Below, piece after piece: positions 6,222 through 24,200 of a DNA stretch of 50,312 nt; within the stretch, counting starts at the first letter, position 1, and the number at the start of each line of letters is the position of its first letter. The stretch comes from an uncultured bacterium (lineage in GTDB: Bacteria > Auribacterota > Erginobacteria > Erginobacterales > Erginobacteraceae). Location of the stretch: the NCBI GenBank assembly GCA_964465735.1, contig CAYXKT010000003.1, positions 1-50,312 of the forward strand, written 5' to 3'. The notes under the pieces were generated by a model. That model did not search any database and was not told the DNA's origin. It saw only the letters and a list, made by a program, of their open reading frames with translations. A program made the position numbers and the translations under genes.

Positions 6222-6829
6222 ACCGTTTTAGACCCGCTGCCGGTGGTTTCCGTTGCCTCCGCTCTCTCTTTCTTCTTCTTCCGGAAGATAAAGGCGGCCA
6301 GCGCCAGGCCAGGAAAAAGTGTCAGCCAGGTCGCCGGCTCGGGGATGATCATAAAGGGGTACTCGGTCCAGAGGTAGAGGCCTCCGGCGGTAATGTCCCA
6401 GATATCGAGTCGGAAGAAGTCGGAGAGGGTGTGGAGCGGGGTCTGCCCGTAGTAGGTGACCTGGGGCCAAGTGGGGGCGTTGAAGAATCGAACATAGACG
6501 TACTTCCCCAGCAGCGAGGAATCGTATTGATACATTTCAAGAAAACTACCCGTGTTTATTGTGGCGTTGGTCCCGATGGCGGTGGTCTCCCAGAGGACGT
6601 CCCCACCGGTTGGCCGTCCGTTATAGACGCTGGGCGGGCTGGGCCAGCCCGGGCTGTTAGTGAAGACAAGTTGGATGATGCTGCCGTCTTCCAGCAGGGT
6701 CATATTCTCGTCCATCAACCCGACCCGGTTTAGATAGATCAGGTTTACGACGTAAGCCCGGGCCCCTCCGGGAAGTCCGGTGGCCAGCAACAGGGCCAGA
6801 GTAAAGATGATGAGTGTTGTCCTTTTCAT
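6218..6829 (-). CDS. Small secreted protein with C-terminal PEP-CTERM-type sorting signal
   Basis: 203 aa with signal peptide MKRTTLIIFTLALLLATGLPGGARA. The C-terminus reads IIPEPATWLTLFPGLALAAFIFRKKKK: a PEP motif, a hydrophobic helix and a basic cluster, followed by a 16-aa tail. The N-domain shares blocks with the 473-aa protein: GRPTGGDVLWETTAIG vs GTPTGDDFLITETAIG, and KYVYVRFFNAPTWPQVTYYGQT vs TFIYVRIFNRPTLAESTYYGDT. Confidence 0.8.
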   Translation of the reverse strand: MKRTTLIIFTLALLLATGLPGGARAYVVNLIYLNRVGLMDENMTLLEDGSIIQLVFTNSPGWPSPPSVYNGRPTGGDVLWETTAIGTNATINTGSFLEMYQYDSSLLGKYVYVRFFNAPTWPQVTYYGQTPLHTLSDFFRLDIWDITAGGLYLWTEYPFMIIPEPATWLTLFPGLALAAFIFRKKKKERAEATETTGSGSKTV

Positions 6830-6862
6830 TCTCTAATGTCGGCTGAACTCCGGTTTGCTAGT

Positions 6863-8599
6863 TTACTCTTCATATTTCAGGTAGGTTTTGATCTCTTTGG
6901 CTCCGCTGTTCTGGTAGGGAACAGCGAAGGCGAAGGTACTGGAATTCCAGGCCACTGGTTCGTCGGGGTTCCAGTACTGCATCACTACCGCCGGCGAACC
7001 GGGGGAGAAGGTCAATTCGTTGCCGACCAAATCTCCCCATAATTCGATCGGGACGAAATACTTCCACTGGCCGGCAGCGGTGTGGTCCTGGTAGATTACT
7101 ACTACCGGTTCGTTGCTTTTCCCTCCGATTGTCGATAGGTCGCGGTCATAAAAGACCAGCCAGTCGCTTTCCATAGCAACCAAAAAATGACTGCTCGGGT
7201 TAACCGAGCCGGCCAGATCGGGGAAGTTGACCTGGTTGAAGCGGCGGTCAACCGGGAAGTTGTAGTTGAGAAAAGTTACCTTGCTGTGGTCTTCCCAGCC
7301 GGGATCGTCAGGTGTCACCGTCTGCCCGTTCCAGGTCCGGTGGTGGATCTGATGGAAGTAGCTGTCCATCTTCAGGGCGGCCCCGGCATAAAAGGTGAGG
7401 GCGGGGAAAGGGGATTCGGGGGCGACCGGGGAGACCAGGCGGAAGCCGTCACTGCCGGTGATGGTCCGGGAGGAGGGACCGCTATCTTCTTGCTTCTTCC
7501 AGCCAATTCCGCTTTCCCGTAGGTAGTCAATGGTGAAGGAACCCGTCTGGGCCTGCCAGAGGTTGAACTTGGTTGCCTGGGCCGCAGTGGAACCGGCCGG
7601 GAAGAAGGCGGTCCCCAGGGCGTAGTCGAGCACGCCTCCGCTCCCGGGGACGTCCCCGGCCAACCCCATCATTATCTGGGTCTCCCCGGCGGGGATGTCC
7701 CGCCGTTGGATCATCATCACTTCTTTGGCCAGGGTACTGGCCAGGCGGAAGCTGCCCATCTCGGTATAGTAGCGCCAGGTCCCGGCCGCCTCGGCCGTCG
7801 GCTCCCCTTCCAGGTAGGTTCCGGCGATCGCCAGCCGGTAAAACCGGATATCTCCATCCTCCAGGCTGGTCAGGGTGGTCTCGGTGAAGTAGTTGAAATT
7901 GCCGGTCCGCAACAGATCGGTAGCGTTGGGGTGGAGTTGCCAGGTCCCGGTCAGGTTGAACCAGTTGGCGCTGGGGAATTGTCCGCCGACTTGAGAGGCC
8001 CGCGACCAATCGGCGTAGAGGATGTCAAAGGCCAGCGAGCGAACATAGTCGGGGTACTCGGATTCGAAACCCTGGATCGAGATGGTCGGGTTGCGCCAGA
8101 TCAGGAGCGGCTGGCCGGCGGAATTTCCGACCCGGATGTCGGTAAACTGGAAAAAGGAGGTCTCATCGGTGGGATCGGTCCGAGCCAGGAACTCCTGGAT
8201 ATTCGTGAATCCGTCACCTTCCCAGTCGTGGATGGCGTCCATTGGATTATAGTCCCACATCGTATGGACATTGAAGCCGGAATCAGTCCAACTGGCGAAC
8301 TGCTCCTCGTAAGCGGTGGGCATCCCATCCTTATCCCGGTCCTTGTCCCACCAGACCGGGAGGTTGATGGTGTAAGCCCAGCCCGCTCCGGAATGTCTGC
8401 CGGACCCCGGCCAGGCCCCGATCGGGGAAGGTTGGCCGAGTGTGTCCCAGGTGTCGAAGCTTACACTCTTCTTGTACTTCCCCATTGCGCTGAATTCAGA
8501 ACTGGTGAGGAGAAAACTGGTGCTCTCCATCTTGGGAAAAGCCCCCAGGACGGGAGATGCGGTCAGAAACAGGACGAAAATTGTCCAGGTGGTTTTCAT
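6863..8599 (-). CDS. Secreted hypothetical protein with acidic Ca-binding-like DxDxDG / TDPTD motif
   Basis: 578 aa with signal peptide MKTTWTIFVLFLTASPVLGA. It carries WDKDRDKDGMPTAYEE and WEGDGFTNIQEFLARTDPTDETS motifs of the thrombospondin-type-3/dockerin-like kind. No further family was recognised. Confidence 0.7.
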   Translation of the reverse strand: MKTTWTIFVLFLTASPVLGAFPKMESTSFLLTSSEFSAMGKYKKSVSFDTWDTLGQPSPIGAWPGSGRHSGAGWAYTINLPVWWDKDRDKDGMPTAYEEQFASWTDSGFNVHTMWDYNPMDAIHDWEGDGFTNIQEFLARTDPTDETSFFQFTDIRVGNSAGQPLLIWRNPTISIQGFESEYPDYVRSLAFDILYADWSRASQVGGQFPSANWFNLTGTWQLHPNATDLLRTGNFNYFTETTLTSLEDGDIRFYRLAIAGTYLEGEPTAEAAGTWRYYTEMGSFRLASTLAKEVMMIQRRDIPAGETQIMMGLAGDVPGSGGVLDYALGTAFFPAGSTAAQATKFNLWQAQTGSFTIDYLRESGIGWKKQEDSGPSSRTITGSDGFRLVSPVAPESPFPALTFYAGAALKMDSYFHQIHHRTWNGQTVTPDDPGWEDHSKVTFLNYNFPVDRRFNQVNFPDLAGSVNPSSHFLVAMESDWLVFYDRDLSTIGGKSNEPVVVIYQDHTAAGQWKYFVPIELWGDLVGNELTFSPGSPAVVMQYWNPDEPVAWNSSTFAFAVPYQNSGAKEIKTYLKYEE

Positions 8600-8709
8600 T
8601 GCTTCAAATTTCTTAGTTTGCTCTTGCTTCAGTTCCTGGCCAGCCCACTGAGTACACGTATTAACACTGATTATAATTACGACTACCCCAACTCCGTGGT
8701 CCGAGGTGT

Positions 8710-8943
8710 TTAAGTAGCCGCTTCCAGTACCTTGATTCTATCTTCGTGGTCTTTCAGATTGGTACTTAATTTATTATCTGCTTCTTCGATTTTTCTTTGG
8801 TTGATCTCGATTGCTTCGCGGTTGGTCTCGACTTTCCGGTCAACTTGCGCGATAGTCGCTCGGTTTTTAGTGATCTCCTCCCGGTTCTTGCCTATCTCCT
8901 CCCGATTCCGGTCAATCTTTCCGGAGAGGGTCTGGGCAATCAT
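8710..8943 (-). CDS. Small coiled-coil protein (may be the 3' remnant of a longer stop-interrupted gene, see findings)
   Basis: 77-aa ORF rich in heptad-like repeats: DRNREEIGKNREEITKNRATIAQVDRKVETNREAIEINQRKIEEADNKL. The same frame continues upstream through an in-frame TGA (8979-8977) and TAA (9084-9082) to an ATG at 9096. Confidence 0.5.
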   Translation of the reverse strand: MIAQTLSGKIDRNREEIGKNREEITKNRATIAQVDRKVETNREAIEINQRKIEEADNKLSTNLKDHEDRIKVLEAAT

Positions 8944-9365
8944 ATCCAGCTTGAGATTTGTCTCCCGGTTCAGTTCTCAGGCTTCTTCCCGGGTTTGTTT
9001 GATCTCACTGCGCAATCCCTGATGTCCCTCCAGAACCAGGTCGATCTTGCCATTCAGATGTTCCAAGAGAATTTCGAATCTTTACCTTTCTTTCATATTA
9101 TTTGTTCCGGCGGAAAAATGTCAATTGGTGTAATACTGTAGCTCTTTAAAAAGGGATAGGACGTTACCAATTTATTGCTTTTCCGCGTTAAAAATCCCAG
9201 CCGGATTATAATTGGGAATGGATATTAGCTCATATTTTAAATATAAATATTTCCTTGAGGATAAAACTGGCGCTTGCCATTGTTGGGAAAGCACCCTGGA
9301 TGGAGAAAGTGGTCAGGAGCAGGTGTCCGATAATTGTTTGGTAGCTTTTCATCACTATAGATTAA

Positions 9366-10559
9366 TTACCAGATCGAGAACATCTGTCTCCCCTGTAGTA
9401 TCGGCGTAACCGAAGGAGTCGGGGTAATTGACGGAGTCGGCGTGGCCGAGGGGGTGGGCGACGGGGTAACCGACGGGGTCGGGGTTATCAAGGGAGAGGG
9501 AGTGGCCGAGGGCTTGGGCGACGGGGTCGGCGTCAGGAAGCGACAGATTGAAACGTCGTCGAAAGCCAGGTTTCCGGAGGACTTGGTGTAGGTGAACTGG
9601 AATTGGATGCTGGCCGGCCGAACCGCCAGAGGGCCGAAATTGGTCCCGGTGGTCGGGAGCGGGACCATATTGGTCACCGTGGACCAGGCTGTGCCGTCGG
9701 AACTTTCCTCGACCAGAAATGAACTGGTGATGTCCGTACTCTGGCCCTTGAGCCAGAAGTAGATATCCTCAGGAGCCGCGATCTCCGGGGTCTTTACTCG
9801 GGCGTTGTTTTGATCAAATTTGAGAGAGGGTGACTGACGGCCGAAATTGCCCGACGTGGTGTAATTATCGGTAATCCCGGTGAAAGTCCAGCCGGTAGGG
9901 ACGGTCCAGTCCGCGGCAAGAAAATCATCAAACCCCTCGGGAAAATCCGGAGCGGGTCGGCAGTTCGGCCAGCCCAATGGGGCGGGGATCTCGCCCAGCC
10001 AGGCGGCACCGATCAAAAACTTCGGGGTTCCGGTGCTACGCTGGGCGCTCAGCCGGATTCCTCCTAAATCCCCGGTCCCGATTGAAAAGCTCTCGGAGAT
10101 CTGGATCCAACCCGATTCCTCTTTGTAGTCGGTAAAACTCGCCGACTGGTAGCTGCCGTTGACAGGATTGGCGATGCGCAACGAGACCCGGATATAATTG
10201 GTCGCGGTGACGTCAAGGGCCTTGATCCAGACCTGGGCGTGATAGGTCCCGGCGGCGGTTATCTTCACCCCGGGGTCCGAGGTCAGTGTGTAGGTGGTTC
10301 CGATCGGTGCCCACTGAGCGGAGTAATTCCCGACCAGGGAGTCCGAGTTGCGGGTGATGTGGCTGGCGGTCCCGGATTTGATCCAATTGTGGAGGTCGTC
10401 AGCGCTCGTTCCGCTCCCGTCCCAGGTTTCGAAGTTCCAGTTCCGGCCGACTAACAAGTTCTCTTCGGCCCCCGCCCGTCCGATGGCACCGAAACAGAGC
10501 AGCAGCAATCCCAGCGCCAGTACCCGTGGCGGCCAAACTAAATGTTGGTTTATTCTCAT
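9366..10559 (-). CDS. Secreted protein with CBM/galactose-binding-like beta-sandwich domains and C-terminal Pro/Thr/Ser repeat tail
   Basis: 397 aa with signal peptide ([18 protein letters not shown]). The N-terminal NWNFETWDG...W pattern resembles CBM4/9-type modules. The tail is [44 protein letters not shown]. The domain call is pattern-based only. Confidence 0.6.
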
Positions 10560-10581
10560 TGGATCGCGCAGTTGGCCGGGT

Positions 10582-13500
10582 TTAAGGAGTAATTACCTGC
10601 AGGGTGACCAGAAGTCCGGCACCCGGGGTGGTGGAGCCGATCTGGTCGATGTTAACGTAGATCCGCTGCCCGAAACCAATCTTGTATTTGGCAGGGGCAA
10701 TGTTGGTGGTGGTGGCCGCCTGGTTCCCGGTTTGGCCCAGGTTAAGCTGTCCAGCTCCGGCGATCAGGTCGTCGGAGGCTCCGCCGATGCCGATCGCCAG
10801 AAGGGCGTCAGTTCCGTTGGCAGCGGTCTCCAACTGGCCGGTGGCTCGGACCACGTAACCCTCGGCCATCTGCCAGGTGGCCAAACCCATAAAGTTATCG
10901 CCGGCGGCGATATCACCCTGCTGATAGAAATTAACCTGTCGGAGCATCTCCGGGCTTCCGGTCTGAAGGTAAGCGTCATAGGAAGCGGTCATCGGCGCCC
11001 CGGCCAGTGTGACCGTCCCCGCAGAATAGGCGGTTACCATCCCGTAGCTCCAGGTGCCCGGGCTGTCGGCATAGCGGATCGGCGTTCCGACCTTGAAGGC
11101 CGCCTGGTTGGCAGCGTCGTTGGTGACCGTGAATGTCGCGTCGCTGGTCCGGGTAAAGTCGCGGTAGGCCCACCGAGTGAGCTGTTCACCAGCCCAGTGT
11201 AGGTCACCGGCGACATTGTAGAGCCGGTCGGTGGTGGTGGCCGGGGCCGAGGTCTGTTCCAACCAGGTCCGACCAGCCACGCTCAAGACCTCGGCGGGGG
11301 CGGTGGTCCCGATCCCCACCTTCCCGTCGTTGGTTACAGTCAGGCGGGCGTCGGTCTTGGAGACGTTGGTGCTGCCTGCGCTATTCTCGGTGGCCAGATG
11401 GATGGACCCCCGGCCATAACTTGCCGTCCGTTCGAAGATCACCGCCCCTTTTCGGTTAAGGTTGCCGGCGGAGTGGATTCGGAAGTTGAGGCCGGTGACA
11501 TCTCCTTCTGTGGTGGTGGGGCTTTCCAGGTTAAGGGGGACGGTGTTGGCCGCGCTGAGATCGAGGTAGTTCCTCGGAAGGCTGGTGCCGATCCCGAGAT
11601 AACCCCCGTCCTTCTGGAGGATCAGGTTGCGGGCGGTCCCATCGTCATCAACATCGAGATAGGCATAGCGGCTGGCGGCGGTGGCGTGGGTTCCCAGGCC
11701 CAGCCGGAGCTGGAGTGGGCTGACTCCGGTGCTGGCCACTCGGAAGACGTCTTCGGAGGCGGTGGTCGATTTGGGATTGGTTCCCCGGACGTCCAGGCGC
11801 AGGTCGGGGACCTGGGTGCCGATCCCCAGTCGCTTGTTTGTGCTATCCCAGAAGAAGTTGTCGTCTCCGCCCAGTGAGGTGGCTGAGGACCAGAAGGTGG
11901 CCTGACCAGTGGCCCCGGACCCAAAGAGTCCGGTACCGGTCAGGGTGATCCAGCGGGCACCGTCACTGTATTTGAGGGATTTGTCGGCGGTGTTGAAGAA
12001 GAGTCCCCCTGCGGTACCGACGGCCGGATCAGCACCGGTCCCAACTAAGAGGAAGACTCCGGTGTCGCGCATCGAGAAGAACCGTTTACCTAAGAGTGTG
12101 AAGTCGATGTTGCCGTTGGAAGCCTGGTAGATACCGGTGTTGGACTCGCCTCCCAGGGAGATGATCGGGTTGGTGTTGGAGCCGTTGCCGTTCAGGATGA
12201 AATGGCCGGTGGCGTCGAAGGTCGCCCGCAAGTTTCCACTGGTAGTAACGCCGATCGCGTTGTTGCCGCTACGGTAGAAACCGGTGTCATTATCTCCGTC
12301 CCAGGTAAGTGCCGGTGCGGCTGCCGATCCATCAGTATCCAGGGCTACGATGTCGGCGGTTATATTGGTGAACTCAGCGGAGGAGGGGACGGTAGCCCCG
12401 ATCAGGGTCCCGTCGATATTCCCGCCGTTAATGTCGGCGGTGGCGATAGTGCCGGTGCCGGCGACGTAAAGGTCTTTCCACCGGGCACCGCTGCTGCCCA
12501 GGTCCCGGGTGTTATCTGCGTCCGGGATAAGGCCGGCGGCGATGCCTGTGATGTTGCTGAGATCTCGGAGAGCGAAGTCGCCCGCGCCCCCGGCCGAACC
12601 GGTCAGGGCGATCCAGTCGGTTCCGTTATAGTACATCAGGGATTTGGTGGTAGAACTGGCGTAGAGCATCCCGGCCGATGTGGCGGCGGGGTTGAAGGTG
12701 GCGCCGGCAATCGGGGTCAGGTAAAGGTGGGCGGCGTCTCCGGTGGCGGGGGGGTCGATATGGAGGACCGGCTGGGGAAAAGTGGTGTTGCCGACCCGGA
12801 AAGTGACCAGCGGATTGGCCTGGCTGACGGTGTTGTTGGAGTAAACGGTTAATCCCCCGAAGTTGTTTCCGGTATTGAGGATGTGGAGTGCGCCGCCTTC
12901 AGCTTGAGTGATCCCGCTATCGGAGTTGCCGGACTGAGTGATCATAATCGCCGGCTTGCCGGTGGCATTAGTGAACTGGGCTGCTTTCCCCGTTCCCGCC
13001 TGGCGGACATAGAGGGCGTTCCCCCCGGCCGACGGACGGCTCTGGTAAACCTGGAGCGCCGCTCCGGTGGTGAGGGCGTCCGAACTCGCGGTGATATTGA
13101 CGACGTTGCCCTGCACGGCGGTGGACGACCGGATATAAACGCCGTCGCCCCCGGTGTTGCTGGCGTGGACTCCCAGGGCCCGCCCGGGGGAGGTCCGTTC
13201 AATCAGGACCGCTTCGTTGTTCTCGCCGCCGCTGCCTCCGGAATGAGAGATGACCAGGGCCCGTCCGGTGTTGGCGGTGAAAGTCACCAGGTCGTATTTG
13301 GTGTTGGCGGCGGTCGAGGAGACGTCGAGAGCGGTCCCGGTGGTCAGGTTGTTGGCCACGATCTGGAGAGCCTCGCCGTCGGTCGCGGTGGAGGCCAGGG
13401 TGACCTTATCGCTGGCGGCGTTATAAGCAAGAGCTGCTTCCTCGGAGAGGAGGCCGTCGGCGCCGGTCCAGACCAGGTGCCCGGGCGTAAGACCGGTGGC

Positions 13501-16500
13501 CACGGTCCCCGCGGTCAGGTTGGTGAAAGCCCCGGCAGCGGCGGTGGTTACACCGATCGGAGGCGGGGCGGCGAAGACACCGGCCAGGTTGGAGGGGACT
13601 ATCGCCTTGTCGGTAGCGGTGCCGGTCACCGCCTCGGCATTGGTAGCGATCTCGATCACGCCGATGTCTGTCTCCGTTGCGCTGATACCGGAGACCGTGA
13701 GTGTTCCAGCCCCGACAGTAGAGGTGATACCGTTACTGGTGCCAACTGCAGCGATGGCCGGAGCGGCACCGGTGGATCCGATGATCAGTTGTCCGTCGGT
13801 CATAGCCGCCAGGTCGTCCAAGGTGGATTCATTGGTCCAGTACGCCATCGTATTCGCGGTGCCGGCACCGTTCAACCCCGCTCCGATCGGGAGACCGTCC
13901 ACATAGGTCTTGACCGCTTGCTCGGTGGGGACAGCGGCGTCGCTGTTCCCGGCCAGAGTCCCGTCGATCGAGAACTCGTTGATCGTTGCCCCGGAAGCGA
14001 GATGGGCGGTGGCGGCGCTCAGGCCGGTGAAAGTCGCGTTGACGGCGGTGAGCCGGTTGTTGGTGTCGTCATATTCAAAACCCGCCTGGCCGCTGATCTG
14101 AGAACTCTCGGTCCAGTAAGCTACCTGAGGTGAAGACCCGGTCCCCACCACCGTCCCGTCGCCGCTGCCGCCTTCCCCCGGGAGCGCCTGCCACTCGGTT
14201 CCGTTGTTGTAATAGAGCGTTCCGTCGATATTGACGTAAAAAGCTCCGGTATAGGTGTTCCAGGTGCCGCCAGGAGCGGGTTCGTTGGCCATTGGCACCA
14301 GGTGCAGGGGGGCCGCCGTCCCGGAGTTGGCTTGGAGCCTGAGTATCGGCTGCCGGTTAAAGGAGCTTCCCCCTCGGAACCAGACCAGAGGGGCGGCCGC
14401 CGACTGGTTACTGAAGGCGGTGATGGCACTGCCGAAGGCACCGGTGCCGGCATAGATATGGAGTGCCCCGCCGGCGCCGGCGGCGGACCCTGGTGATGAA
14501 TCCCCGGTCGAGGCGGTCTGGTTAATCCTGATAGCGCTGCGCTCTCCACCCTGCTCGATATTTACGGCGTACTGATCGGCCGCGCTCTGCTCAACCCGCA
14601 GGGCCGGACGGGTCGCAGTCTCCTTGACCTCGAGCCGGGCGGCGGGGGCACCAAGCGTGTTGATCCCCATTAGCTGGTTGGCGTTGATCCGGAAAGCCTC
14701 CGTGCCACCGGTGGAGATGGCGATGTTGTCAGCCGCCGGCTTCCAGATCCCGGTATCGTTATCGCCCTGGAAGGTTATCAGTGGAGTGGCGGCACTGCTG
14801 GAGGTATCGATGATCCGCATCCGTTCAGTGTTGCCGGTATAAAAATTGATCGTTCCGGCGGCGGGAGAGGTAATGTAAGTGCTGGCGGCGGTGCCCCAGT
14901 ACAATTTCTGGCCGCCGCCCGAGCCTACCTGGAGATCGTTCCAGGTCGCGACCTTGGTACCGGGGTAGACCCGCAGTTCCCGGTTGGGGGACCAGGTGCT
15001 GCCATCGCTGGCGTAGAGGGTGTCATTCGCCTGATCGGGCTCGGGGATTGAGCCCTCGCCGGAGGCGATCGGCTTCCACGATGATCCGTCGTGATACATA
15101 AAGGTGTCGGACTGGTTATTGAAGTACAATCCTCCCTTGGCGGCTGATCCCGGTTCGGCGTCAAGGGGTTGGAAACGGGTTTGACCGTTCGCTCGTATCG
15201 AGAAACGCAGGTTCCCGGCGGTGGTGAAACCGATTGTATTGGCGATCGGACGGTACATACCGGTACCAGGATCGGTGGCCCAGGTGATGATCGGGGATCC
15301 AGCCGATCCTGAGGAGTTAAGGGCGACGATTCCGGCGGTCAGGCCGGTGAAGGTCGCGTTGTCGGCGGTGAGCAGTTTGGTGGCGGCGTCATATTCAAAA
15401 CCCGCCTGGCCGCTGATCTGGGAATCCTGGGTCCAGTAGGCTACCTGAGGTGAAGACCCGGTCCCCACCACCGTTCCGTCGCCGCTGCCCCCGCTGTCGG
15501 AGTCTCCGGTCAGGGCGATCCAGTCGGTCCCGTTATAGTAATGGAGGGACCCGTCGGTCTTGACGTAAAACTCTCCGGCCAGGGAGGTGCCCGCTGGCGC
15601 TGCCTGCGGAACCAGATGAAGCGGGTTAGCCCCCGTGGTCCTTCCCTCCAAACGCAATACCGGTTGTCCGGAGAAAGGCGCCATCACCTTGAGCCAGGCC
15701 AGGGCCGACTGGGGCGCGGTCTGGGTGGAGTAGGCGGTAAGGGCGGGTCCGGTATTGCCCGAGTTCTGGATGTGGATGGCTCCGCCGCCGGTCTGGGAAC
15801 TGAGCGCGGCTTCGGTGCTACGATTGGCTTGTACCCAGATCGCCGACTTGCCGGTGGCACCGGCCGCGAGCGTGAACCGGGCGGCTTCCCCGGCCCCGTC
15901 CTGCTGGACAAAGAGGGCTTTGCCCAGGCCGCTGGAGTGATCCTGCTCGATCGTCAGGGCAGAACCGCCGGCGGTCAGGCCGGGGGAGTTGGCCTTGATC
16001 ATCATCGTCTGGCCGGAGGTGATGGAGGTGGATTCGACCCAGACCCCGCTACCGGTGGGGTTGTTGGAACGGACCTGGAGGGCCCGACCCGTCGCGCCAC
16101 GTTCGATGTAAACCATCGCGTCGCCGGTCGCCCCGGCCGAATTCGAGGTGACTTCCAAAGCGCGCCCCGAGGTCAGAGAATCAGCCGTGATCTCAACTGC
16201 GGTGGTAGTGGTCGCCCCGGAAGCTACGGTCAGTTTGTCGTTGGCGGTATTCCAGGTGAAGGCCGAATCGCCCCCGAAGTTGCCGCCGTCGTTGAATTGA
16301 ATCTCGGTGTCGCTTCCGGCTACGCCGTCCACGCCGGCGACGGCGTCATCCACGTACTCCCTGACCGCCTGTTCGGTCGGGATCTTGACATTCCCCCCGG
16401 CCAGCGTCGTGTCGGTCGAGAACTCTGTTATCGTCGCCCCGGCGCCCAGATAGGCGGTGGATGCGGTCAGGTTGGTGAAAGCCCCGGCAGCGGCGGTGGT

Positions 16501-19500
16501 TACACCGATCGGAGGCGGGGCGGCGAAGACACCGGCCAGGTTGGAGGGGACTATCGCCTTGTCGGTAGCGGTGCCGGTCACCGCCTCGGCATTGGTAGCG
16601 ATCTCGATCACGCCGATGTCTGTCTCCGTTGCGCTGATACCGGAGACCGTGAGTGTTCCAGCCCCGACAGTAGAGGTGATACCGTTACTGGTGCCAACTG
16701 CAGCGATGGCCGGAGCGGCACCGGTGGATCCGATGATCAGTTGTCCGTCGGTCATAGCCGCCAGGTCGTCCAAGGTGGATTCATTGGTCCAGTACGCCAT
16801 CGTATTCGCGGTGCCGGCACCGTTCAACCCCGCTCCGATCGGGAGACCGTCCACATAGGTCTTGACCGCTTGCTCGGTGGGGACAGCGGCGTCGCTGTTC
16901 CCGGCCAGAGTCCCGTCGATCGAGAACTCGTTGATCGTTGCCCCGGAAGCGAGATGGGCGGTGGCGGCGCTCAGGCCGGTGAAAGTCGCGTTGACGGCGG
17001 TGAGCCGGTTGTTGGTGTCGTCATATTCAAAACCCGCCTGGCCGCTGATCTGAGAACTCTCGGTCCAGTAAGCTACCTGAGGTGAAGACCCGGTCCCCAC
17101 CACCGTCCCGTCGCCGCTGCCGCCTTCCCCCGGGAGCGCCTGCCACTCGGTTCCGTTGTTGTAATAGAGCGTTCCGTCGATATTGACGTAAAAAGCTCCG
17201 GTATAGGTGTTCCAGGTGCCGCCAGGAGCGGGTTCGTTGGCCATTGGCACCAGGTGCAGGGGGGCCGCCGTCCCGGAGTTGGCTTGGAGCCTGAGTATCG
17301 GCTGCCGGTTAAAGGAGCTTCCCCCTCGGAACCAGACCAGAGGGGCGGCCGCCGACTGGTTACTGAAGGCGGTGATGGCACTGCCGAAGGCACCGGTGCC
17401 GGCATAGATATGGAGTGCCCCGCCGGCGCCGGCGGCGGACCCTGGTGATGAATCCCCGGTCGAGGCGGTCTGGTTAATCCTGATAGCGCTGCGCTCTCCA
17501 CCCTGCTCGATATTTACGGCGTACTGATCGGCCGCGCTCTGCTCAACCCGCAGGGCCGGACGGGTCGCAGTCTCCTTGACCTCGAGCCGGGCGGCGGGGG
17601 CACCAAGCGTGTTGATCCCCATTAGCTGGTTGGCGTTGATCCGGAAAGCCTCCGTGCCACCGGTGGAGATGGCGATGTTGTCAGCCGCCGGCTTCCAGAT
17701 CCCGGTATCGTTATCGCCCTGGAAGGTTATCAGTGGAGTGGCGGCACTGCTGGAGGTATCGATGATCCGCATCCGTTCAGTGTTGCCGGTATAAAAATTG
17801 ATCGTTCCGGCGGCGGGAGAGGTAATGTAAGTGCTGGCGGCGGTGCCCCAGTACAATTTCTGGCCGCCGCCCGAGCCTACCTGGAGATCGTTCCAGGTCG
17901 CGACCTTGGTACCGGGGTAGACCCGCAGTTCCCGGTTGGGGGACCAGGTGCTGCCATCGCTGGCGTAGAGGGTGTCATTCGCCTGATCGGGCTTGGGGAT
18001 CGAGCCCTCGCCGGAGGCGATCGGCTTCCACCCGTTGTGATAGTACATAAAGGTCCCGGTCTGAGCGTTGAAGTAGAGATCGCCGGATCTCGAGACCCCG
18101 GAAGATGGGGCTGTTCCCAGGGGCCGGAAGCGGATGTGGCCTTGTCCCCGAATTGAGAACATATCGGTCTGGCTACCCGCGAAGGAAATGTGATTATATG
18201 TCGAGTCAGCGTAGACCCCGAGATGGCTCTGATTGCCGAAGGAGACCGCGGGTACGGACCGTGTCCCCTGGGCGGCTATCCGCAACCGACGGTCGGGAGT
18301 TAAGGTCATCATCTGGGCTCCGCCGGTATAAAATTCCAGAGTATCCTGGTCGGGGCCCTGGATGTAAGTATTGGTGTCGCCGTAGAAGAACATTTTCTGC
18401 CGGATGCGGATATCCTTCTGGACGGTGGCGGTCCCGTCGGCCGAGATCAGAAAACCCGTGGTGGCGACCCAGGTGGTGCCGTCGGAGCCGCGGAGCGTAC
18501 AATCGGCCCCGATCGGGTTCATAATGCTCCCGGTTCCCGAGGCGATCGGGTGCCAGGTGGAGCCCTTAAAATACATAAAGGTGTTTTCGGTGTTGTTATA
18601 ATGAAGATCACCGGTTCTCGAGACCCCGACCGTCGGGGCCGTTCCCAGCGGCCGGAAGCGGACGTGGCCTTGTCCCCGGATCGAGAACATATCGGTCTGG
18701 CTACCCGCGAAGGAAATGTGATTATATGTTGAGTTGGCGTAGATCCCGAGATGACTCTGGTCACTGAAGGAAATTGCGGGCACCTCCTTAGTCCCCCCGA
18801 AGGTCATCCGTAACCGATGGTCGGGGGATAAGGTCATCGTCTGGGCTCCGCCGGTATAAAATTCCAGCGTATCCTGGTCGGGGCCCTGGATGTAAGTATT
18901 TGTATCGCCGTAGAAGAACATTTTCTGCCGGATGCGGATATCCTTCTGGACGGTGGCGGTCCCGTCAGCCGAGATCAGAAACCCTGTGGTGGCGACCCAG
19001 GTGGTGCCGTCGGAACCCCGGAGCGTGGAGTCGGCGCCCAGCGGATCCATAATGCTTCCGGTCCCCGAGGCCACCGGGTGCCAGGTGGCGCCTTTGAAGT
19101 ACATCAGGCTCTCCTGGTCGGTGTCGTAATAGAAATCGCCGTCCATACCGGAGGCCGGCTGGGGGATCGGGATGAAGCGGATCGCCCCGGTGGAACGGAC
19201 CGTGAACCGTCGGCTGGACTGGGTGGAGAAGTCGATCTGATCCGGCCCCGCCTTGAAAATCCCGGTGCCCCCATCCTCGGGGTTAAAGGAGATCAGAGGG
19301 CTGCCGGCCGATCCGTAAACCGACCGGGAAAAGAGGAGCCGAGAGGCCCCGGTCAGCTGGACGAAATCTCCCTCGTTTTGCGGGATGATGGTGGTACCCA
19401 CCCGGGTCCAGGGGGAGGTGGCGGAACTATCCTCCAGAGCGACCCATTGGCTGCCGTCCCAGTACTTGAATTTATTATCGCTGTTATCATAAGCGAAATA

Positions 19501-20076
19501 GCCCGCGTCGGGGGCGTCCGGGAGCGTTCCGGGGGTGACGCGGAAGTATGAACTGTCAATTACCGGCCGGGTCAGGGTCGGGTCAGTCAGGGTTTTATTG
19601 GTGATGATCTGGACATCGGTCACCCCGACAAAGGCGCTCTCCGGACTCTCCAGACCGTCAAGAAGGTCGGCGTTGACCGCGAAGGGGACGGTGAGGATCT
19701 CCTGGACGGGGGCGAGAGTCTCAAAGTAGGTCCCGTCAGTGGAGAAGGCCACCTGGAGGTAATAACTGTCTTGCCCCGTGAAGATTGAAGAAGGGAGATC
19801 AGCAGTGTCTCGGCCGAGGATGACGTTGTAGATACCTTCTACGCAAGTGGTTTCGGCATTTTCCGGACCCCAGTAAACATTGGTCATCGCCTCGTCACCG
19901 ATCCAGAACTTAAATGTCGAGTCTCCGGAATAACCGATATCACCTTCCTCGATTCGGCCCTGAAAGTTGATAGCCGGTTTGTCGTAGGGGTGGGGGAGAT
20001 TCTGACCCCAGGCGGGCAAGGCGATGAGTGCGACCAAGGTCGCGGTGAGAATAATCGGGAAGCTCGAAATTTTCAT
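10582..20076 (-). CDS. Giant (~3,160 aa) secreted surface fibre/adhesin-like protein with phage-tail-fibre-like repeat modules
   Basis: The track ORF is 10582..20103. The preferred start is the ATG at 20076, with GGAGG 6 nt upstream (cctcc at 20083..20087), giving [25 protein letters not shown]. Recurrent motifs are xMYYxGxxWxxLxG, [41 protein letters not shown] and (V/L)GIGTxxPxxxLxVxG, all typical of tail-fibre or Chlorovirus-glycoprotein-repeat-like proteins. It contains large internal repeats, listed separately. Confidence 0.85.
13511..15041. repeat. Copy A of a perfect 1,531-bp direct repeat inside the giant gene
   Basis: Matches 16463..17993 at an offset of exactly 2,952 bp (984 codons, in frame). 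The boundaries were read base by base, with the first mismatch at 15042/17994, and similarity with 2 mismatches continues to 15079/18031. The nested track ORFs 13910..14101, 14121..14549, 14255..14455, 14302..14496 and 14624..14842 have translations identical to their +2952 partners. Confidence 0.9.
16463..17993. repeat. Copy B of the perfect 1,531-bp direct repeat inside the giant gene
   Basis: See copy A. The repeat encodes ~510 identical residues (…[27 protein letters not shown] ... [19 protein letters not shown]). Confidence 0.9.
18004..19059. repeat. Two diverged in-frame tandem units of 528 bp (176 aa) in the N-terminal part of the giant gene
   Basis: The block [73 protein letters not shown] occurs twice. 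The landmark cataatgct(t/c)cc lies at 19048 and 18520, and the antisense ORFs 18932..19129 and 18404..18601 are offset by 528. Confidence 0.8.
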
Positions 20077-20461
20077 AGTTTTCCTCCGGGTAAAGGAGAA
20101 CATTTAAAGTGTCGTAAAAGAAATGATTATAGACAGATTAACTTACTCTATAACCATAACACAGAGAGAAGATATGTCAATGCGCGCAACTCTATAATAT
20201 TTATTTTTCTTCTCGGGAATAGTTTTTCTTATCTCGAGAGTTACTATAGCATATTCCGTGCCAGCATTAAAATATAATGAGAAAAATTCGAGTATATGGG
20301 TTGACAGGGAGAAAGCTTATGAACAAGAAGCCCTTGGCGGGCAAGATATGTCCCGTTACACGGCAATATATTCTGTGATAGCTGGTACTGTTCGGGTAAA
20401 GTTGAGTTATCCAGAGCTTGGATGATTTATACGGCATCACTTTTCCAACTCGGTGAAAATA

Positions 20462-21100
20462 TCAGTCGGGAAGTGGGGGATTGAGGATTCCGTGATATAT
20501 CGAGGTCAGATCCTGATCTCCGGTTTGATCGATTTCGCTTATTCGTTCCTGAATGGCGGGAAAACAACTGGGGTTGATCCCGAGGGCTTTCTGGTAATAA
20601 GCGGCCGCTTCCCGGTGGCGGTTCAGTTTTCGGAGCCGATCGCCGGCTCGGAGGTAGGCCGGGGCGAAATGAGGCAGGAGGCGGAGGGATTCCTGGAACG
20701 AAGTCAGGGCTTCGCGATCCTTTCCCAGTTGAGAGAGGGCGATCCCCAGGTTGTAGCGGGCTTCCCAGTAGTGAGGATTTAATCTGATCGCCTGTCCGTA
20801 ACGGGCAATTGCCTGGTCATAGCTGTCCTCTTCCGAGAGAGCGACCCCCAGGTTGTTATAAGAAAGAGCGTAATCCGGCTTGAGGCGAATCGCCTCCCGG
20901 TACTGTACGATCGCTTCCCTCCGCCGGCCGGTTTCACCCAGTTCGAGTCCGTAATTGTAATAGCCGCGGGCGTGTTCGGGACGGAGAAGGGTAACTTCAT
21001 ACCAGAGCGCGATCGAGTCGCTGTAAATCCGGTTCCATTGCCGGGCCAGGTGTCCGAGGAAAAGAGCGGAGGATAAGGTCAGACTCTCGGATATCGTCAT
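20462..21100 (-). CDS. TPR-repeat protein (C-terminal part of a deleted TMTC-like gene)
   Basis: 212 aa with 4-5 TPR units (YYNYGLELGETGRRREAIVQYREAIRLKPDYALSYNNLGVAL..., HYWEARYNLGIALSQLGKDREAL...). The N-terminal ALFLGHLARQWNRIYSDSIALWYE resembles the segment that links the last TM helix to the TPR domain in the gene at 1..2181. Confidence 0.7.
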   Translation of the reverse strand: MTISESLTLSSALFLGHLARQWNRIYSDSIALWYEVTLLRPEHARGYYNYGLELGETGRRREAIVQYREAIRLKPDYALSYNNLGVALSEEDSYDQAIARYGQAIRLNPHYWEARYNLGIALSQLGKDREALTSFQESLRLLPHFAPAYLRAGDRLRKLNRHREAAAYYQKALGINPSCFPAIQERISEIDQTGDQDLTSIYHGILNPPLPD

Positions 21101-21209
21101 AGACGAACTCTCCCCGGAAGATGTTGCCGTAGGCCAGGATACCCGCCGCGATCAGGATCAGTCCGGCGGCGGCGACCCGCCGCCGATCATTTCCCGGCGG
21201 TAACTTCAT
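20997..21209 (-). pseudogene. N-terminal remnant of a PMT/TMTC-like GT-C gene
   Basis: The 70-aa ORF MKLPPGNDRRRVAAAGLILIAAGILAYGNIFRGEFVYDDI has a TM helix plus the FVYDD motif, as in the gene at 1..2181. It then leaves the frame and overlaps the TPR ORF by 104 nt in another frame. The whole polytopic core is missing. Confidence 0.5.
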
Positions 21210-24200
21210 TGCCCTCTTTTCTCCTCGACCGGATCAGGCCTGCCGCCAGGCCGGCGGCGGTAATCAGCAGCCCGGCCAGGGCCAGCCGGTAAGACCAGCG
21301 GACCGGAGGGGAGAGGTAGGAGATTTCCAGCATCCGCTCTCGGTCCGCTCCGAGGACGGGGACAGCGAAAAAGGGTCCGTTGGCCGGAAGGATCGGAAGG
21401 TTCTTCCCCTCCAGGGAGGCTCGCAGGAGGTTGGTATGGAGCCGGTTAACGATCAGGTAGCCGGGGGATTCGGTATAAAACCGGACCTGGAACCGGTTGG
21501 GGTTCTCCCCGGTGATTAGCTTGGCCCGGTCGAGGGGCGAGGGTCGGCCCGGGGGAAGAAGCGCCGCCGATTCTTCCTCCAGCAGTACCAGTTTCCCTTC
21601 GAGGACCTCTTTCCGTTCGATGATTGTAGTTCCCCATCTCCGGGGATCACCCAGCATTGAAATTACCTCGGCCCGGTGGGCGATGAAGGTGGGGGGGAGG
21701 GCGGAGATCTCCCAGATATCGACTTTGCCGGAGTAAATCTTGATCATCAGCCTTGCGGCTGACCGGCTGCTGCGGTCAAGAGCCCCGGGGGGGGAGAGGA
21801 TATAGCGGGTGCCGGCCAGGCGGAAGAAGGGGAAACTCCGTTCAAAGGCCCGGACCTGGGCGGATTGAGAACTGCCGTAGGGGGTGCCCTGGCTGTGAGT
21901 GATCGGGTTGTCGCCGGTGTACCAGAGCGAGTAACTGGAGTTGGAGGGGACGACCTGGAGGAACTGTTCAAGAAAGAACTGATAGGCGGCCGGGTTCATC
22001 GAGACGCAGCCGCGCAGATCAACCAGTCCGTGGGCGGAGGCGAAGTTAGGGGCCAGTACCCGGCCGACCCCGGTCAGGGCGTAAGGTTGGCGTTCCTGGA
22101 GAAAGCGGACGAAAGCAAGGGGTTCCCGGGGAGAGGACTGCCGGGAGAGGCGGGGAGAAGAGACGGAGTCGATAATCAGGAAAGCGGCGCCGGAAAGTAC
22201 CAGGCCGGCTCCCATCAGGAACGGACGTTTTCTCCGCCAAAAGACCGCGAAAATAACGACCGCGGCGGCGATGGCGAAAGGGATCTTGTCGATCAACAGG
22301 AGTTTATCGAAGTGGTTGCGGGGGATGTAGATCGCCAGTTCCGCCCAGACCGGGAAAAGGAAGAGCCAGCCCATCCCGGTCCCCGCTCCCTCTCCTCGGG
22401 CCCGGAGGCAGAGCCAGGAGAAAAAGGCCACAATGAGGACGGCGAAATAAAAATGGAGCCGGAGCATCTCATCGGCCTGGGGAGAGAAGAATCCGGAGGT
22501 GAAGAAGAGCGCGGCCAGCCCGGCCAGTAAAATAGCGGAGAGAACTGGAAGGATGACTCGCCGGGTTCGCGTATTTGGCGGGAGAAGGAGAAAACCGGCC
22601 AGGTCGAGGACGAAGATCGCCCACCAGATATTCGGCAAGGGGCCCGGGGGGAGGATGGCCCAGCCTCCGGCCAGGGCCAGGGGGATGGCAACCGCGACGG
22701 CGGCGACCGTCCCAAAATTGGCCGGTGAGGCGGCGATGATGAAAAGACCGGCCAGGGCTGCCAGCAATATCGGGGCGGCCAGGAGATAAGCCCCGATCGG
22801 TTCGGGGAGTGGAAAGTGATAATGCCTCTCGGGAAACCAGCGGAGGGCGACGGCTCCCGCCGCGGAGAGCAGGCCGATAACCTCGAACTGCCGATGTCGG
22901 AACGCCTTCCGGCATTTCTGGAAGGTGGAGGAGAGATATCGGCGTAGAGGGGCAGAGATTAAACGATAGATAAGGTAGAGGACTCCGGCCAGAGAGAAGC
23001 AGAGGAGACCATTGGAGAAGACATATCCCCGCAGCTGGGCCTTCTTCCAGAGCTCTCCCGCCTGCCACCAGAAGACGGCGGAGAGGATCAGGCCAAGGAG
23101 GAGCAATCCGGAGATGACCAAGGGATTGGTCAGGAAGGCGCTTGCCCGTCGGTGGGGTGTGGTTCCGGCCGCCGGCCGGAAAGGTTCGGCTTTGTCCAGG
23201 AGATTATCGAGACCGAGGGCGGCGAGGACGGCGAGGGCGAAACTCCAGGAAGCCGCCGCCCAGCGGGGTGACCAGGTCTGGTCGAAGAAGGGGAGGAGGC
23301 CGAGCAGCTGGGCCGGGGACCAGCCGAGATTTTTGGCCAGGACAAAGAGGAAGTAAGATCCGAAGACCATCACCTCCCGCCGGTTCCTCCGTGTCCGGCG
23401 GCCGGCGGCACCGGCCAGGATCAGCAGCCCGAGCCCGAAATAACCCCCAACCCAGTCCCAGAGCAGGTTGATCGTCCGGTAGGACCAGGGCCAGGGGGTC
23501 TGGCGGAGACGGGGAAAGAAGGTGAAGAGAAAATTGGCGACCGTCATCGGGGATTGCAGTCCCAGTTCGCCGCCCGGAGGATGATAGGTCCAGGCTTCCT
23601 CGTGAAAGAGAAGGAAGAGAACGAACTGAGGGGCGGCGATCAAAGCGCTCAAGACGATCGCCCCCAGGCTGGAAAAGAAGGCCGGGTTTTTCCGTCCGGG
23701 GGGGAGGGAGAAGAGACGGGTCAGGCCATAGACCAGGGCCAGCAGGAGGACGTAGAGCTGGATCTCCGGCTGGCTGGCGGTATGGACCAGCGCTAACGCC
23801 AAAGCCAGCCAGCAGGTTCGTCCGAGGTTGGGTCGGTCGAAGAAGGCCCGGACCGCCCAGAGCAGAATCGGCACCGTCATCGCCACGTTGGAGACTTCTT
23901 CGTGGTTGGAGTAGATGACCATAATCGACCCCAACCCGAATCCCACCGCTCCGAGCAGAGCCGCCACCCGGGTTTGGCAGAGCGGTCGAAGGAAGAGGTA
24001 GGTGAAGGCCCCGGCCAGGACCAGTCTCAGGAGGATAAAGAAGTCGTAACCGGCCGGGAGAAAGAGGTTTTCAATTATCTGATAGGGTGAGAAGATCCGG
24101 TGGCAGTACTGGCCGGCCAGGGGGATCCCCAGGTTCTGATCGGGCATTACCAGGGGGATATGCCCCGCCTTCAGTGCCCGGCCGATCGCCAGGTTGACCG

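What the first reader, a model, noticed from the sequence alone, without database searches (positions are those of the whole stretch)
13511..17993. Perfect 1,531-bp in-frame direct repeat, 2,952 bp apart, within one giant gene
Seen: 13511..15041 equals 16463..17993. This was checked base by base at both boundaries and at sampled interior lines, and by identical translations of five nested track ORFs. Near-identity continues for 38 more bases.

The intervening 1.4 kb and the segment after copy A encode only distantly related versions of the same module.

Zero divergence over 1.5 kb contrasts with the ~10-15 percent divergence of the neighbouring 528-bp tandem units.

Inference: three explanations are possible.
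- A very recent segmental duplication.
- Ongoing gene conversion that homogenises one module of a surface fibre. That would also make the gene prone to recombinational length variation.
- An assembly artefact of a repeat collapse or expansion.
Basis: seen in the sequence. Interest (0 to 1): 0.65.

Follow-up and report, generated by a model that had tools for sequence, protein, structure and literature searches.

The report
Duplicated module cassette in giant fibre gene
A 1.5-kb stretch occurs twice, letter for letter and in frame, inside a 3,173-residue secreted, phage-tail-fibre-like surface protein gene of an uncultured bacterium; it looks like a recent copy-and-paste of a three-module cassette, a familiar way for such fibres to change length, but perfect identity and copy number cannot be trusted from this short-read assembly.

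Summary
Window 13511-15041 equals 16463-17993 (0 differences in 1531 bp). The offset is 2952 bp, or 984 codons. Both copies lie in one minus-strand ORF (10582-20103, 3173 aa).

The gene encodes a signal-peptide-bearing mosaic of phage tail-fibre modules. It has positional orthologues in related genomes, with a conserved N-terminal domain and mostly a conserved C-terminal tip. Their shafts range from 618 to 3173 aa.

The two copies sit in register inside an old super-repeat of about 984 aa. Its flanks are only 30-55% identical in protein and are saturated at third codon positions. This rules out a simple recent tandem duplication. It favours non-reciprocal copying (a gene-conversion-like event) of a cassette bounded by two connector motifs that recur through the protein.

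Independent per-run Logan contigs end exactly k-1 bases inside the repeat. They confirm two different continuations at its downstream end, so a pure mis-threading artefact is unlikely.

Exact identity of the interior, the other two junctions and the number of repeat units therefore remain unverified.

This is a new member of a known kind, of modest interest.

The parts
10582..20103 (-). Giant fibre gene, 3173 aa. Order of parts: signal peptide, conserved N-terminal domain, mosaic shaft of tail-fibre-type modules, C-terminal tip.
   Evidence: ORF list and translation. PHROG tail-fibre families: phrog_28766 at 3e-16, phrog_18345 at 6e-15, phrog_972 at 2e-10. No significant Pfam or PDB sequence hit.
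19318..20103 (-). N-terminal 262 aa: Sec-type signal peptide ([25 protein letters not shown], read by eye) followed by a conserved domain, presumably the cell-proximal anchor.
   Evidence: 40-78% identical to the N-termini of positional orthologues in 10 related genomes. Only a weak sub-threshold match to NCBIfam Bdello_MAT_N: 18.4 bits against a cut-off of 60.
18259..19314 (-). Two 176-aa (528-bp) tandem units, U1 and U2, about 85% identical in DNA. A third, more diverged unit runs into repeat copy R1.
   Evidence: family D3; 74-88% aa identity.
16463..17993 (-). R1, the gene-proximal copy of the 1531-bp cassette (aa 704-1214). Contents: second half of a U-type unit, an Ala-rich H module, a YYNG..W hairpin motif, a [13 protein letters not shown] module, a [11 protein letters not shown] module and an [10 protein letters not shown] module.
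15042..16462 (-). Spacer M (aa 1215-1687), a unique sequence built of diverged versions of the same module types. It holds a 160-nt stretch that is 91% identical to R (15333-15492) and two exact shared words of 34-35 nt.
   Evidence: Logan contigs L018 and L019 equal window 16492..15445.
13511..15041 (-). R2, the gene-distal copy of the cassette (aa 1688-2198), identical to R1.
   Evidence: Logan contig L011 starts at 13540, exactly 30 nt inside R2, and runs into the C-flank.
15042..15079 (-). 38-nt near-identical extension, paired with 17994-18031. It encodes the connector motif [11 protein letters not shown] and has 2 mismatches.
13511..13531 (-). Downstream edge of the cassette. It encodes the connector motif FTNLTA, which recurs as FTGLSA, FTGLTA and FTNITA at other module joints. 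The same motif lies at 16463-16483.
10585..11283 (-). C-terminal tip (aa 2941-3173), an all-beta domain that ends in the conserved sequence VTLQVITP.
   Evidence: AF2 with a 7-sequence alignment gave pLDDT 72. Foldseek found 54 viral hits at E<=1e-3, mostly C-terminal domains of phage tail fibres and minor tail proteins, and only weak jelly-roll hits in the PDB. Conserved in the orthologues of G009, G013, G011 and G002.

Best explanation
The repeat is a real two-copy feature of the gene. The gene encodes a cell-encoded, Sec-secreted surface fibre built from phage tail-fibre-type modules.

The shaft contains an old super-repeat of about 984 aa (roughly aa 606-1590 and 1590-2570). Within it, the first half of one period has recently been overwritten by the first half of the other. 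This half is a three-module cassette bounded upstream by the connector [11 protein letters not shown] and downstream by the connector F-T-N-L-T-A. The overwriting was non-reciprocal copying, either gene conversion or template switching at the connectors.

The result is two in-frame copies at or near 100% identity. Homologous recombination between them could delete or amplify the 984-codon R-M unit in frame and so change fibre length.

Shown:
- the identity in the assembly;
- the in-frame register;
- the old, diverged, collinear flanks;
- the two continuations at the downstream end of R in independent per-run assemblies;
- the orthologue family, with conserved N-terminal domains, mostly conserved C-terminal tips, and shaft lengths of 618-3173 aa.

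Inferred:
- the copying mechanism and its direction;
- that the interior of R is truly identical in both copies;
- that there are exactly two copies;
- surface display, trimeric structure and an adhesive or receptor-binding role of the tip.
For: (a) There are 0 differences in 1531 bp at an offset of 2952 bp, or 984 codons.

(b) Aligning aa 521-1606 with aa 1506-2599 gives a collinear match. The flanks on both sides show 6-20 identical residues per 30 and third-codon identity of about 30-63% (mostly 35-45%). The central 511 aa are 100% identical. The block therefore sits in an old duplication, and the rest of the period did not take part.

(c) In a tree of H-type modules from 7 genomes, copies do not cluster by genome. 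R groups with a G006 module (96/94 support), the M copy with another G006 module, and the C-flank copy with a G009 module. The module types are old, and R1=R2 is an exceptional recent event.

(d) Both edges coincide with motifs that recur at other module joints of the same protein.

(e) Independent assemblies agree. A k=31 graph of the genome predicts where unitigs must break. Logan contigs from single runs match those predictions to the base:
- L011 = 13540..5199 (SRR11702755);
- L012 = 21807..18937 (SRR11702754);
- L018 and L019 = 16492..15445 (SRR11702771 plus one more sample, and SRR11702754).
The downstream end of R is therefore followed by M in some reads and by the C-flank in others.

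(f) The gene has positional orthologues in conserved synteny: GT-C 815, GT-C 1080, TPR, fibre, 397-aa-like, 578, PEP-CTERM 203, FG-GAP. Their lengths are 618, 831, 1269, 1551, 2022, at least 2364, and 3173 aa. Module gain and loss is therefore how this family evolves.

(g) Relatives also carry internal super-repeats 1.4-2.1 kb apart, but at only 71-82% DNA identity.
Against:
- The genome is a fragmented, scaffolded draft of 231 contigs with N50 18 kb and 100-N gaps. From this I infer a short-read assembly. Such an assembler can pass a 1.5-kb repeat only by threading a loop. It would merge isolated differences between the copies, so '0 differences' may overstate the identity and 'two copies' may understate the number.
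- The other long repeat of this genome (C26, 824 bp) also has all its differences within 108 nt of its edges. That pattern fits real conversion tracts and assembler collapse equally well.
- The two upstream junctions of R (N-flank|R and M|R) were not confirmed independently.
- Flanks at about 50% DNA identity could not support RecA-type conversion today. Either the replaced segment was much more similar than the flanks, or a mechanism based on microhomology must be assumed.
Confidence: 0.58

Rival explanations
1. The copies are real but not identical. R1 and R2 differ at scattered sites (for example 0.5-3%), and the short-read graph assembler merged these into one consensus. The event would then be older than it looks, and 'perfect identity' would be an assembly product.
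For: The draft is fragmented and scaffolded, which I take to mean short reads. In both long repeats of the genome, every retained difference lies close to an edge, where it is linked to unique flank: C3 at 1 and 8 nt, C26 within 108 nt. Look-ups of the R-internal contigs predicted from the genome found nothing.
Against: My test for a genome-wide collapse signature had no power: 4 isolated mismatches observed against 3.5 expected after shuffling. The failed look-ups are explained by an apparent floor of about 1 kb in the index. All four predicted contigs under 1 kb were absent and all three of at least 1 kb were present. Even in this reading the block is at least about 97% identical against flanks of about 50%, so the biological conclusion changes little.
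Confidence: 0.22
2. Assembly mis-threading. Each genome has only one R. The R-M-R path is a chimera of strains or of paralogous genes joined through a shared repeat.
For: The genome comes from a metagenome in which near-identical strains coexist. L011 differs from the window at 13 of 8342 positions. The M|R and N|R junctions are seen only in this assembly.
Against: The R|M junction is present in per-run Logan contigs from at least 3 samples, and the R|C-flank junction in another. No other contig of the genome carries R or M. M ends in 38 nt that are near-identical to the N-flank, carry M-specific variants and run straight into R; I infer that reads must have spanned this. Any molecule that contains M is flanked by R sequence on both sides in the graph. 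M's module order continues the collinear super-repeat, which a chance chimera would not do.
Confidence: 0.1
3. The R-M unit is present in more than two copies or in variable numbers, giving N-(R-M)n-R-C with a mix of n in the population. The fibre would then be length-variable in the manner of Periscope Proteins, and the assembly shows only the minimal traversal of the loop.
For: The loop topology leaves n undetermined. A 1.5-kb direct repeat is an efficient substrate for RecA-dependent deletion and amplification (established knowledge). Every product is in frame, because the offset is 984 codons. Orthologue lengths vary five-fold.
Against: There is no direct evidence and depth could not be measured. 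Only two copies are seen, and they are not tandem domains.
Confidence: 0.1

Closest known systems
Periscope Proteins: variable-length bacterial surface stalk proteins with highly identical DNA repeats (Whelan et al. 2021, PMC8201768)
   Same: It is a large secreted surface protein whose gene carries long repeats of very high DNA identity. Such identity is proposed to allow intragenic recombination and hence length change, and the paper stresses that long reads are needed to count the repeats. A distal functional domain sits on a long stalk.
   Different: Periscope stalks are tandem arrays of one folded domain, with many copies. Here there are two copies of a 511-aa multi-module cassette separated by a 473-aa unique spacer. 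The shaft is of the tail-fibre type (I presume it is trimeric). Length variation is seen only between species, not between strains.
Mosaic adhesive trimer (MAT) fibres of Bdellovibrio bacteriovorus (Caulton et al. 2024, PMC10769870)
   Same: These are cell-encoded, secreted, phage-tail-fibre-like fibres. They have an invariable N-terminal domain, a mosaic shaft and variable C-terminal tips displayed on the cell surface. The present family likewise has a conserved N-terminal domain, a variable shaft and a tip similar to phage fibre tips.
   Different: The N-terminal domain matches the MAT_N model only weakly, over 37 residues (18.4 bits against a cut-off of 60). There is no S74 domain. The protein is much longer. 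There is usually a single copy per genome rather than about 21 paralogues. The host lineage is different (reported as Auribacterota by earlier notes, which I did not verify).
Mosaic phage tail fibre genes such as T4 gp34/gp37-type long fibres
   Same: It shares sequence modules with PHROG tail-fibre families, including a proximal-subunit family, and its tip fold resembles phage fibre C-termini. The modular shaft has recurring connector motifs at which exchange appears to occur.
   Different: It carries a signal peptide. It is not in a phage or tailocin context. Instead it sits in a cellular glycosyltransferase and secreted-protein locus that is conserved in at least 6 related genomes.

Membership tests
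Periscope Proteins | Stalk made of a tandem array of highly identical repeats of one folded domain | tested here: not met
   There are two copies only. They are not adjacent (a 1421-bp spacer lies between them), and each is a multi-module cassette. The adjacent 528-bp units are only 85% identical.
Periscope Proteins | High DNA identity between repeats | tested here: met
   1531 of 1531 bases are identical in the assembly. This is subject to the assembly caveat.
Periscope Proteins | Repeat-number (length) variation between strains of a species | not testable with these tools
Between species and genera the orthologues range from 618 to 3173 aa.
MAT fibre superfamily (Bdellovibrio) | Conserved MAT N-terminal domain (NCBIfam NF053851) | tested here: not met
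   18.4 bits against a cut-off of 60; only profile positions 109-145 match.
MAT fibre superfamily (Bdellovibrio) | Intertwined trimeric beta-prism shaft | tested here: inconclusive
   A single-sequence AF2 model of R had pLDDT 34, was all-beta and is unusable. No trimer prediction was possible.
MAT fibre superfamily (Bdellovibrio) | Variable C-terminal binding tip, with or without an S74 chaperone | tested here: inconclusive
   The tip model has pLDDT 72 and resembles phage fibre C-termini. No S74 domain was found. Binding was not tested.
Phage tail fibre (as a virion component) | Sequence homology to tail fibre modules | tested here: met
   PHROG tail-fibre families match at E from 3e-16 to 2e-10.
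Phage tail fibre (as a virion component) | Encoded within a phage, prophage or tailocin structural module | tested here: not met
   The neighbours are GT-C glycosyltransferases, a TPR protein, and FG-GAP and PEP-CTERM secreted proteins. This neighbourhood is conserved in related genomes. The protein has a signal peptide.
Gene-conversion tract between intragenic paralogues | Block of (near-)identity in register between collinear, anciently diverged flanks | tested here: met
   the tract is 100% identical; the flanks are 20-67% identical in protein per 30-residue window, with third-position identity mostly 35-45%.
Gene-conversion tract between intragenic paralogues | Phylogenetic discordance: converted copies cluster together while neighbouring paralogous modules cluster with other genomes' modules | tested here: met
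   based on one module type and 17 sequences. Support is 96/94 for R with G006a_15123; the other groupings have about 85% support.
Gene-conversion tract between intragenic paralogues | Both copies verified as separate and identical in the underlying molecules | not testable with these tools
Only two of the four junctions were confirmed in independent contigs.

The most novel reading that the evidence does not exclude
The fibre is a length-switching surface organelle of an uncultured PVC-group bacterium. The two identical cassettes would be kept identical by selection, because recombination between them adds or removes a 984-residue R-M unit in frame (about 50 nm on the T4 gp34 yardstick, from memory). 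This would give a population mix of short, medium and long tail-fibre-type adhesins. It would be an interspersed-repeat, trimeric-fibre counterpart of Periscope Proteins.
Probability: 0.15. Interest if true: 0.55.

Novelty: new member of a known kind. Interest (0 to 1): 0.3.

Why it matters
The finding shows, at single-event resolution, how a cell-encoded tail-fibre-like adhesin family grows its shaft. Whole multi-module cassettes are copied between connector motifs, and orthologues range five-fold in length.

If the copies are truly identical, the gene is primed for in-frame length variation of about 1000 residues. That would alter how far the tip domain projects from the cell.

In practice it flags a place where this draft genome may misreport both sequence and copy number. 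It also names three public runs in which this could be settled.

Tried and rejected
- Read evidence: the look-up of sequencing runs and read laying with run ids learnt from Logan contigs were both closed. I measured no depth or phasing.
- Exact look-ups of predicted Logan contigs for whole R, whole M, R part a, R part b, M part a, the N|R junction and the window-allele C-flank all found nothing. Every predicted contig under 1 kb failed and every one of at least 1 kb succeeded, so the index probably has a floor of about 1 kb. I drew no conclusion from these failures.
- The listing of cluster members: none of the sequences is in that collection.
- I thought the genome showed a k=55 bulge-collapse signature, because almost no mismatch between repeat copies has at least 56 identical bases on both sides. 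A shuffle control gave the same count (4 observed against 3.5 expected; only 8 repeat pairs are informative). The test has no power and I dropped the claim.
- Simple tandem duplication is rejected.
- General concerted evolution of all module copies within a genome is rejected by the module tree.
- I found no close relatives of the whole gene in GTDB species genomes or in JGI metagenome contigs. There is therefore no strain comparison.
- Annotation of the gene: no significant hit in Pfam, NCBIfam or the PDB by sequence. The single-sequence AF2 model of R was useless.
- The plus-strand ORFs inside the gene (12883-14133, 15541-17085 and others) have no family hit and are taken as shadow ORFs of a GC-rich gene. 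Rfam found nothing.
- Taxon name: I did not establish it. 'Auribacterota' comes from earlier notes only.


Full report
OBSERVATION

Window 13511-15041 and 16463-17993 are identical at all 1531 positions, and the exact match stops at both ends (family D2). The offset is 2952 bp, or 984 codons.

Both copies lie in one ORF on the minus strand, 10582-20103, which encodes 3173 aa. The copies encode aa 704-1214 and aa 1688-2198.

Beyond 15041/17993 another 38 bases differ at only two sites: 15042 (E/K) and 15049 (synonymous). After that the sequences diverge abruptly with an indel. The other edge is abrupt.

The neighbouring 528-bp units are 85% identical. This is the longest high-identity repeat in the whole genome. 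Tandem Repeats Finder reports nothing here, because the copies are not adjacent and the 528-bp period exceeds the 500-bp limit.

WHAT THE GENE IS

The product starts with a Sec-type signal peptide. It has no significant Pfam, NCBIfam or PDB sequence match. It does match PHROG tail-fibre families: phrog_28766 at 3e-16, phrog_18345 at 6e-15, and phrog_972, 'tail fiber protein proximal subunit', at 2e-10. Its short conserved motifs are shared with proteins that carry Mtd_N, S74, collagen or DUF2793 domains.

The last 474 aa have 7600 relatives among 1.84 billion representative proteins. Many of them are giants of up to 7185 aa with numerous matched stretches.

The C-terminal 233 aa, modelled with a 7-sequence alignment, gave pLDDT 72 and an all-beta fold. 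Foldseek found 54 viral hits at E<=1e-3, mostly C-terminal domains of phage tail fibres, minor tail proteins and collagen-type fibres. The PDB gave only weak jelly-roll hits.

The gene is not in a phage context. Its neighbours are two GT-C glycosyltransferases, a TPR protein, a 397-aa secreted protein, a 578-aa protein, a PEP-CTERM protein and FG-GAP proteins. This order is conserved in related genomes.

In those genomes the positional orthologue keeps the N-terminal 262 aa at 40-78% identity. In most it also keeps the C-terminal tip ending in VTLQV(I/V)TP. Total length, however, is 618, 831, 1269, 1551, 2022, at least 2364 and 3173 aa.

This is therefore a cell-encoded fibre family with conserved N-terminal domains, mostly conserved C-terminal tips and a very plastic shaft. 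It works like the MAT fibres of Bdellovibrio (PMC10769870). It fails that family's defining N-domain model, at 18.4 bits against a cut-off of 60.

ANATOMY OF THE REPEAT

In gene orientation the order is:
- N-flank (aa 1-703);
- R1 (aa 704-1214);
- M (aa 1215-1687);
- R2 (aa 1688-2198);
- C-flank (aa 2199-3173).

A global alignment of aa 521-1606 with aa 1506-2599 is collinear throughout. Before the tract, identity is 6-15 residues per 30. The window that contains the boundary reaches 28 of 30. Seventeen windows are 30 of 30. After the tract, identity falls to 10-20 per 30, with shifting offsets. Third-codon identity in the flanks is about 30-63%, mostly 35-45%, which is near saturation.

So there is an old super-repeat of about 984 aa. 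Only its first half is identical between the two periods. A recent tandem duplication of a 2952-bp unit would have made the whole period identical, so that reading is rejected.

A tree of the Ala-rich 'H' module from seven genomes shows that copies do not cluster by genome:
- R groups with one G006 module (96/94 support);
- the M copy groups with another G006 module;
- the C-flank copy groups with a G009 module.

The module types therefore predate the split of these lineages. There is no general concerted evolution, and R1=R2 is an exceptional recent event. Relatives also have internal super-repeats 1.4-2.1 kb apart, but at only 71-82% DNA identity.

Both edges of R fall at motifs that recur at other module joints in the protein:
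- upstream, W-x-P-[IV]-A-S-G-x-G-S-I, which follows every 'YYNG..W' hairpin;
- downstream, F-T-x-[LI]-[ST]-A, which is followed elsewhere by P-type, U-type or S-type modules.

R is thus a cassette of about three modules between two universal connectors.

IS IT AN ASSEMBLY ARTEFACT?

The genome is a 2.83-Mb draft of 231 contigs with N50 18 kb and twenty 100-N gaps. From this I infer a short-read, scaffolded metagenome assembly. Such an assembly can contain a 1.5-kb exact repeat twice in one contig only by threading the loop N-R-M-R-C.

As a substitute I built the k=31 graph of the genome and predicted where unitigs must break. I then fetched Logan contigs, which are assembled run by run with a different program.

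Three of these contigs match the predictions to the base:
- L011 (SRR11702755) is window 13540..5199. It starts exactly 30 nt (k-1) inside R2 and runs into the C-flank.
- L012 (SRR11702754) is 21807..18937.
- L018 and L019 (SRR11702771 plus one more sample, and SRR11702754) are 16492..15445. That is 30 nt of R1 followed by M, with 1 and 0 mismatches respectively.

The downstream end of R therefore has two different continuations in reads from several runs. This is not a product of the genome assembler's path choice.

The upstream junctions (N|R and M|R) could not be confirmed. All predicted contigs shorter than 1 kb (221, 405, 586 and 917 nt) were absent from the index, while all of at least 1 kb were present. 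I take this as a length floor in the index, not as evidence. No other contig of the genome carries R or M.

What remains open:
- whether the interior of R is truly identical in both copies, because a graph assembler merges isolated differences that it cannot link to unique flank;
- how many R-M units there are.

The second long repeat of the genome lies in C26 (824 bp at 99.4%, inside a 1027-aa ORF). All its differences are also within 108 nt of its edges, and its interior 707 nt are exact. This fits both real conversion tracts and assembler collapse.

I tested for a genome-wide collapse signature and found an apparent cut-off at 55 nt. A shuffle control gave the same numbers, so I withdrew that argument.

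MECHANISM

Best reading (0.58): a recent non-reciprocal copy of the cassette from one period of the old super-repeat onto the other. The route was either gene conversion, if the replaced segment was still similar enough, or template switching at the connector motifs.

The two mismatches at the upstream edge could be the patchy end of a conversion tract or the remnant of an older, longer one.

The consequence is inferred from established knowledge of RecA-dependent recombination between direct repeats. The two copies can recombine to delete the R-M unit, giving 2189 aa, or to amplify it, and every product stays in frame. This is the logic proposed for Periscope Proteins (PMC8201768). Those, however, are tandem arrays of one domain, which this is not.

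RIVALS

- The copies are real but diverged, and the assembler homogenised them (0.22).
- Strict mis-threading, with one copy per genome (0.10).
- A higher or variable number of units (0.10).

VERDICT

Conversion-like copying is favoured, simple duplication is rejected, and a strict artefact is unlikely but exactness is unverifiable.

This is a new member of a known kind: high-identity intragenic repeats in large surface fibres, and mosaic tail-fibre evolution. Interest is modest at 0.3.

The taxon (Auribacterota) comes from earlier notes of this scan, and I did not check it.

Noticed in passing
Genome contig C26:18403-21483 (not in the window): A 1027-aa ORF with a signal-like N-terminus carries a second long internal repeat. 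Positions 18522-19344 match 19427-20250 over 824 bp at 99.4%. The interior 707 nt are exact, and all differences lie within 108 nt of the edges.
   Followed up: partly
window 8563-8995: Nine of the 13 differences between the window and Logan contig L011 (SRR11702755, 8342 nt) fall in this 430-bp stretch. It is a local hot spot of between-sample variation.
   Followed up: no
window 2252-26923, with loci L020-L027: The gene order GT-C 815, GT-C 1080, TPR, fibre, 397-aa-like protein, 578-aa protein, PEP-CTERM 203 and FG-GAP proteins is conserved across related genomes of the family and order. The fibre varies from 618 to 3173 aa. Pfam recognises nothing in any of the fibres.
   Followed up: partly
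L024:7825-11631 (G008:C31): The G008 orthologue (1269 aa) keeps the N-terminal domain but ends in a different C-terminus (…AWQIVGTAREPFADDAGLIEIMVGK) instead of VTLQVITP. This looks like a tip swap, as described for MAT fibres. Pfam finds no S74 domain.
   Followed up: partly
window 9366-10559 (-): A 397-aa secreted protein lies immediately downstream of the fibre gene, after a 22-nt gap. It has a Pro/Thr/Ser-rich tail. Its aa 208-340 domain recurs next to the fibre gene in G008, G009, G011 and G013, so it may be a partner or accessory protein. It matches no family.
   Followed up: partly
Many genome contigs, e.g. C80:12161-12335, C98:10387-10561, C40:19783-19957, C8:9069-9243: Numerous dispersed copies of a 174-175-nt element are exactly identical. 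They are probably the MITE noted earlier in this window.
   Followed up: no
G021 and G037 (same phylum, other families): The fibre N-terminal domain occurs in 3-6 copies per genome on proteins of 305-1596 aa. This suggests multi-paralogue fibre repertoires in some lineages, closer to the Bdellovibrio MAT situation.
   Followed up: no
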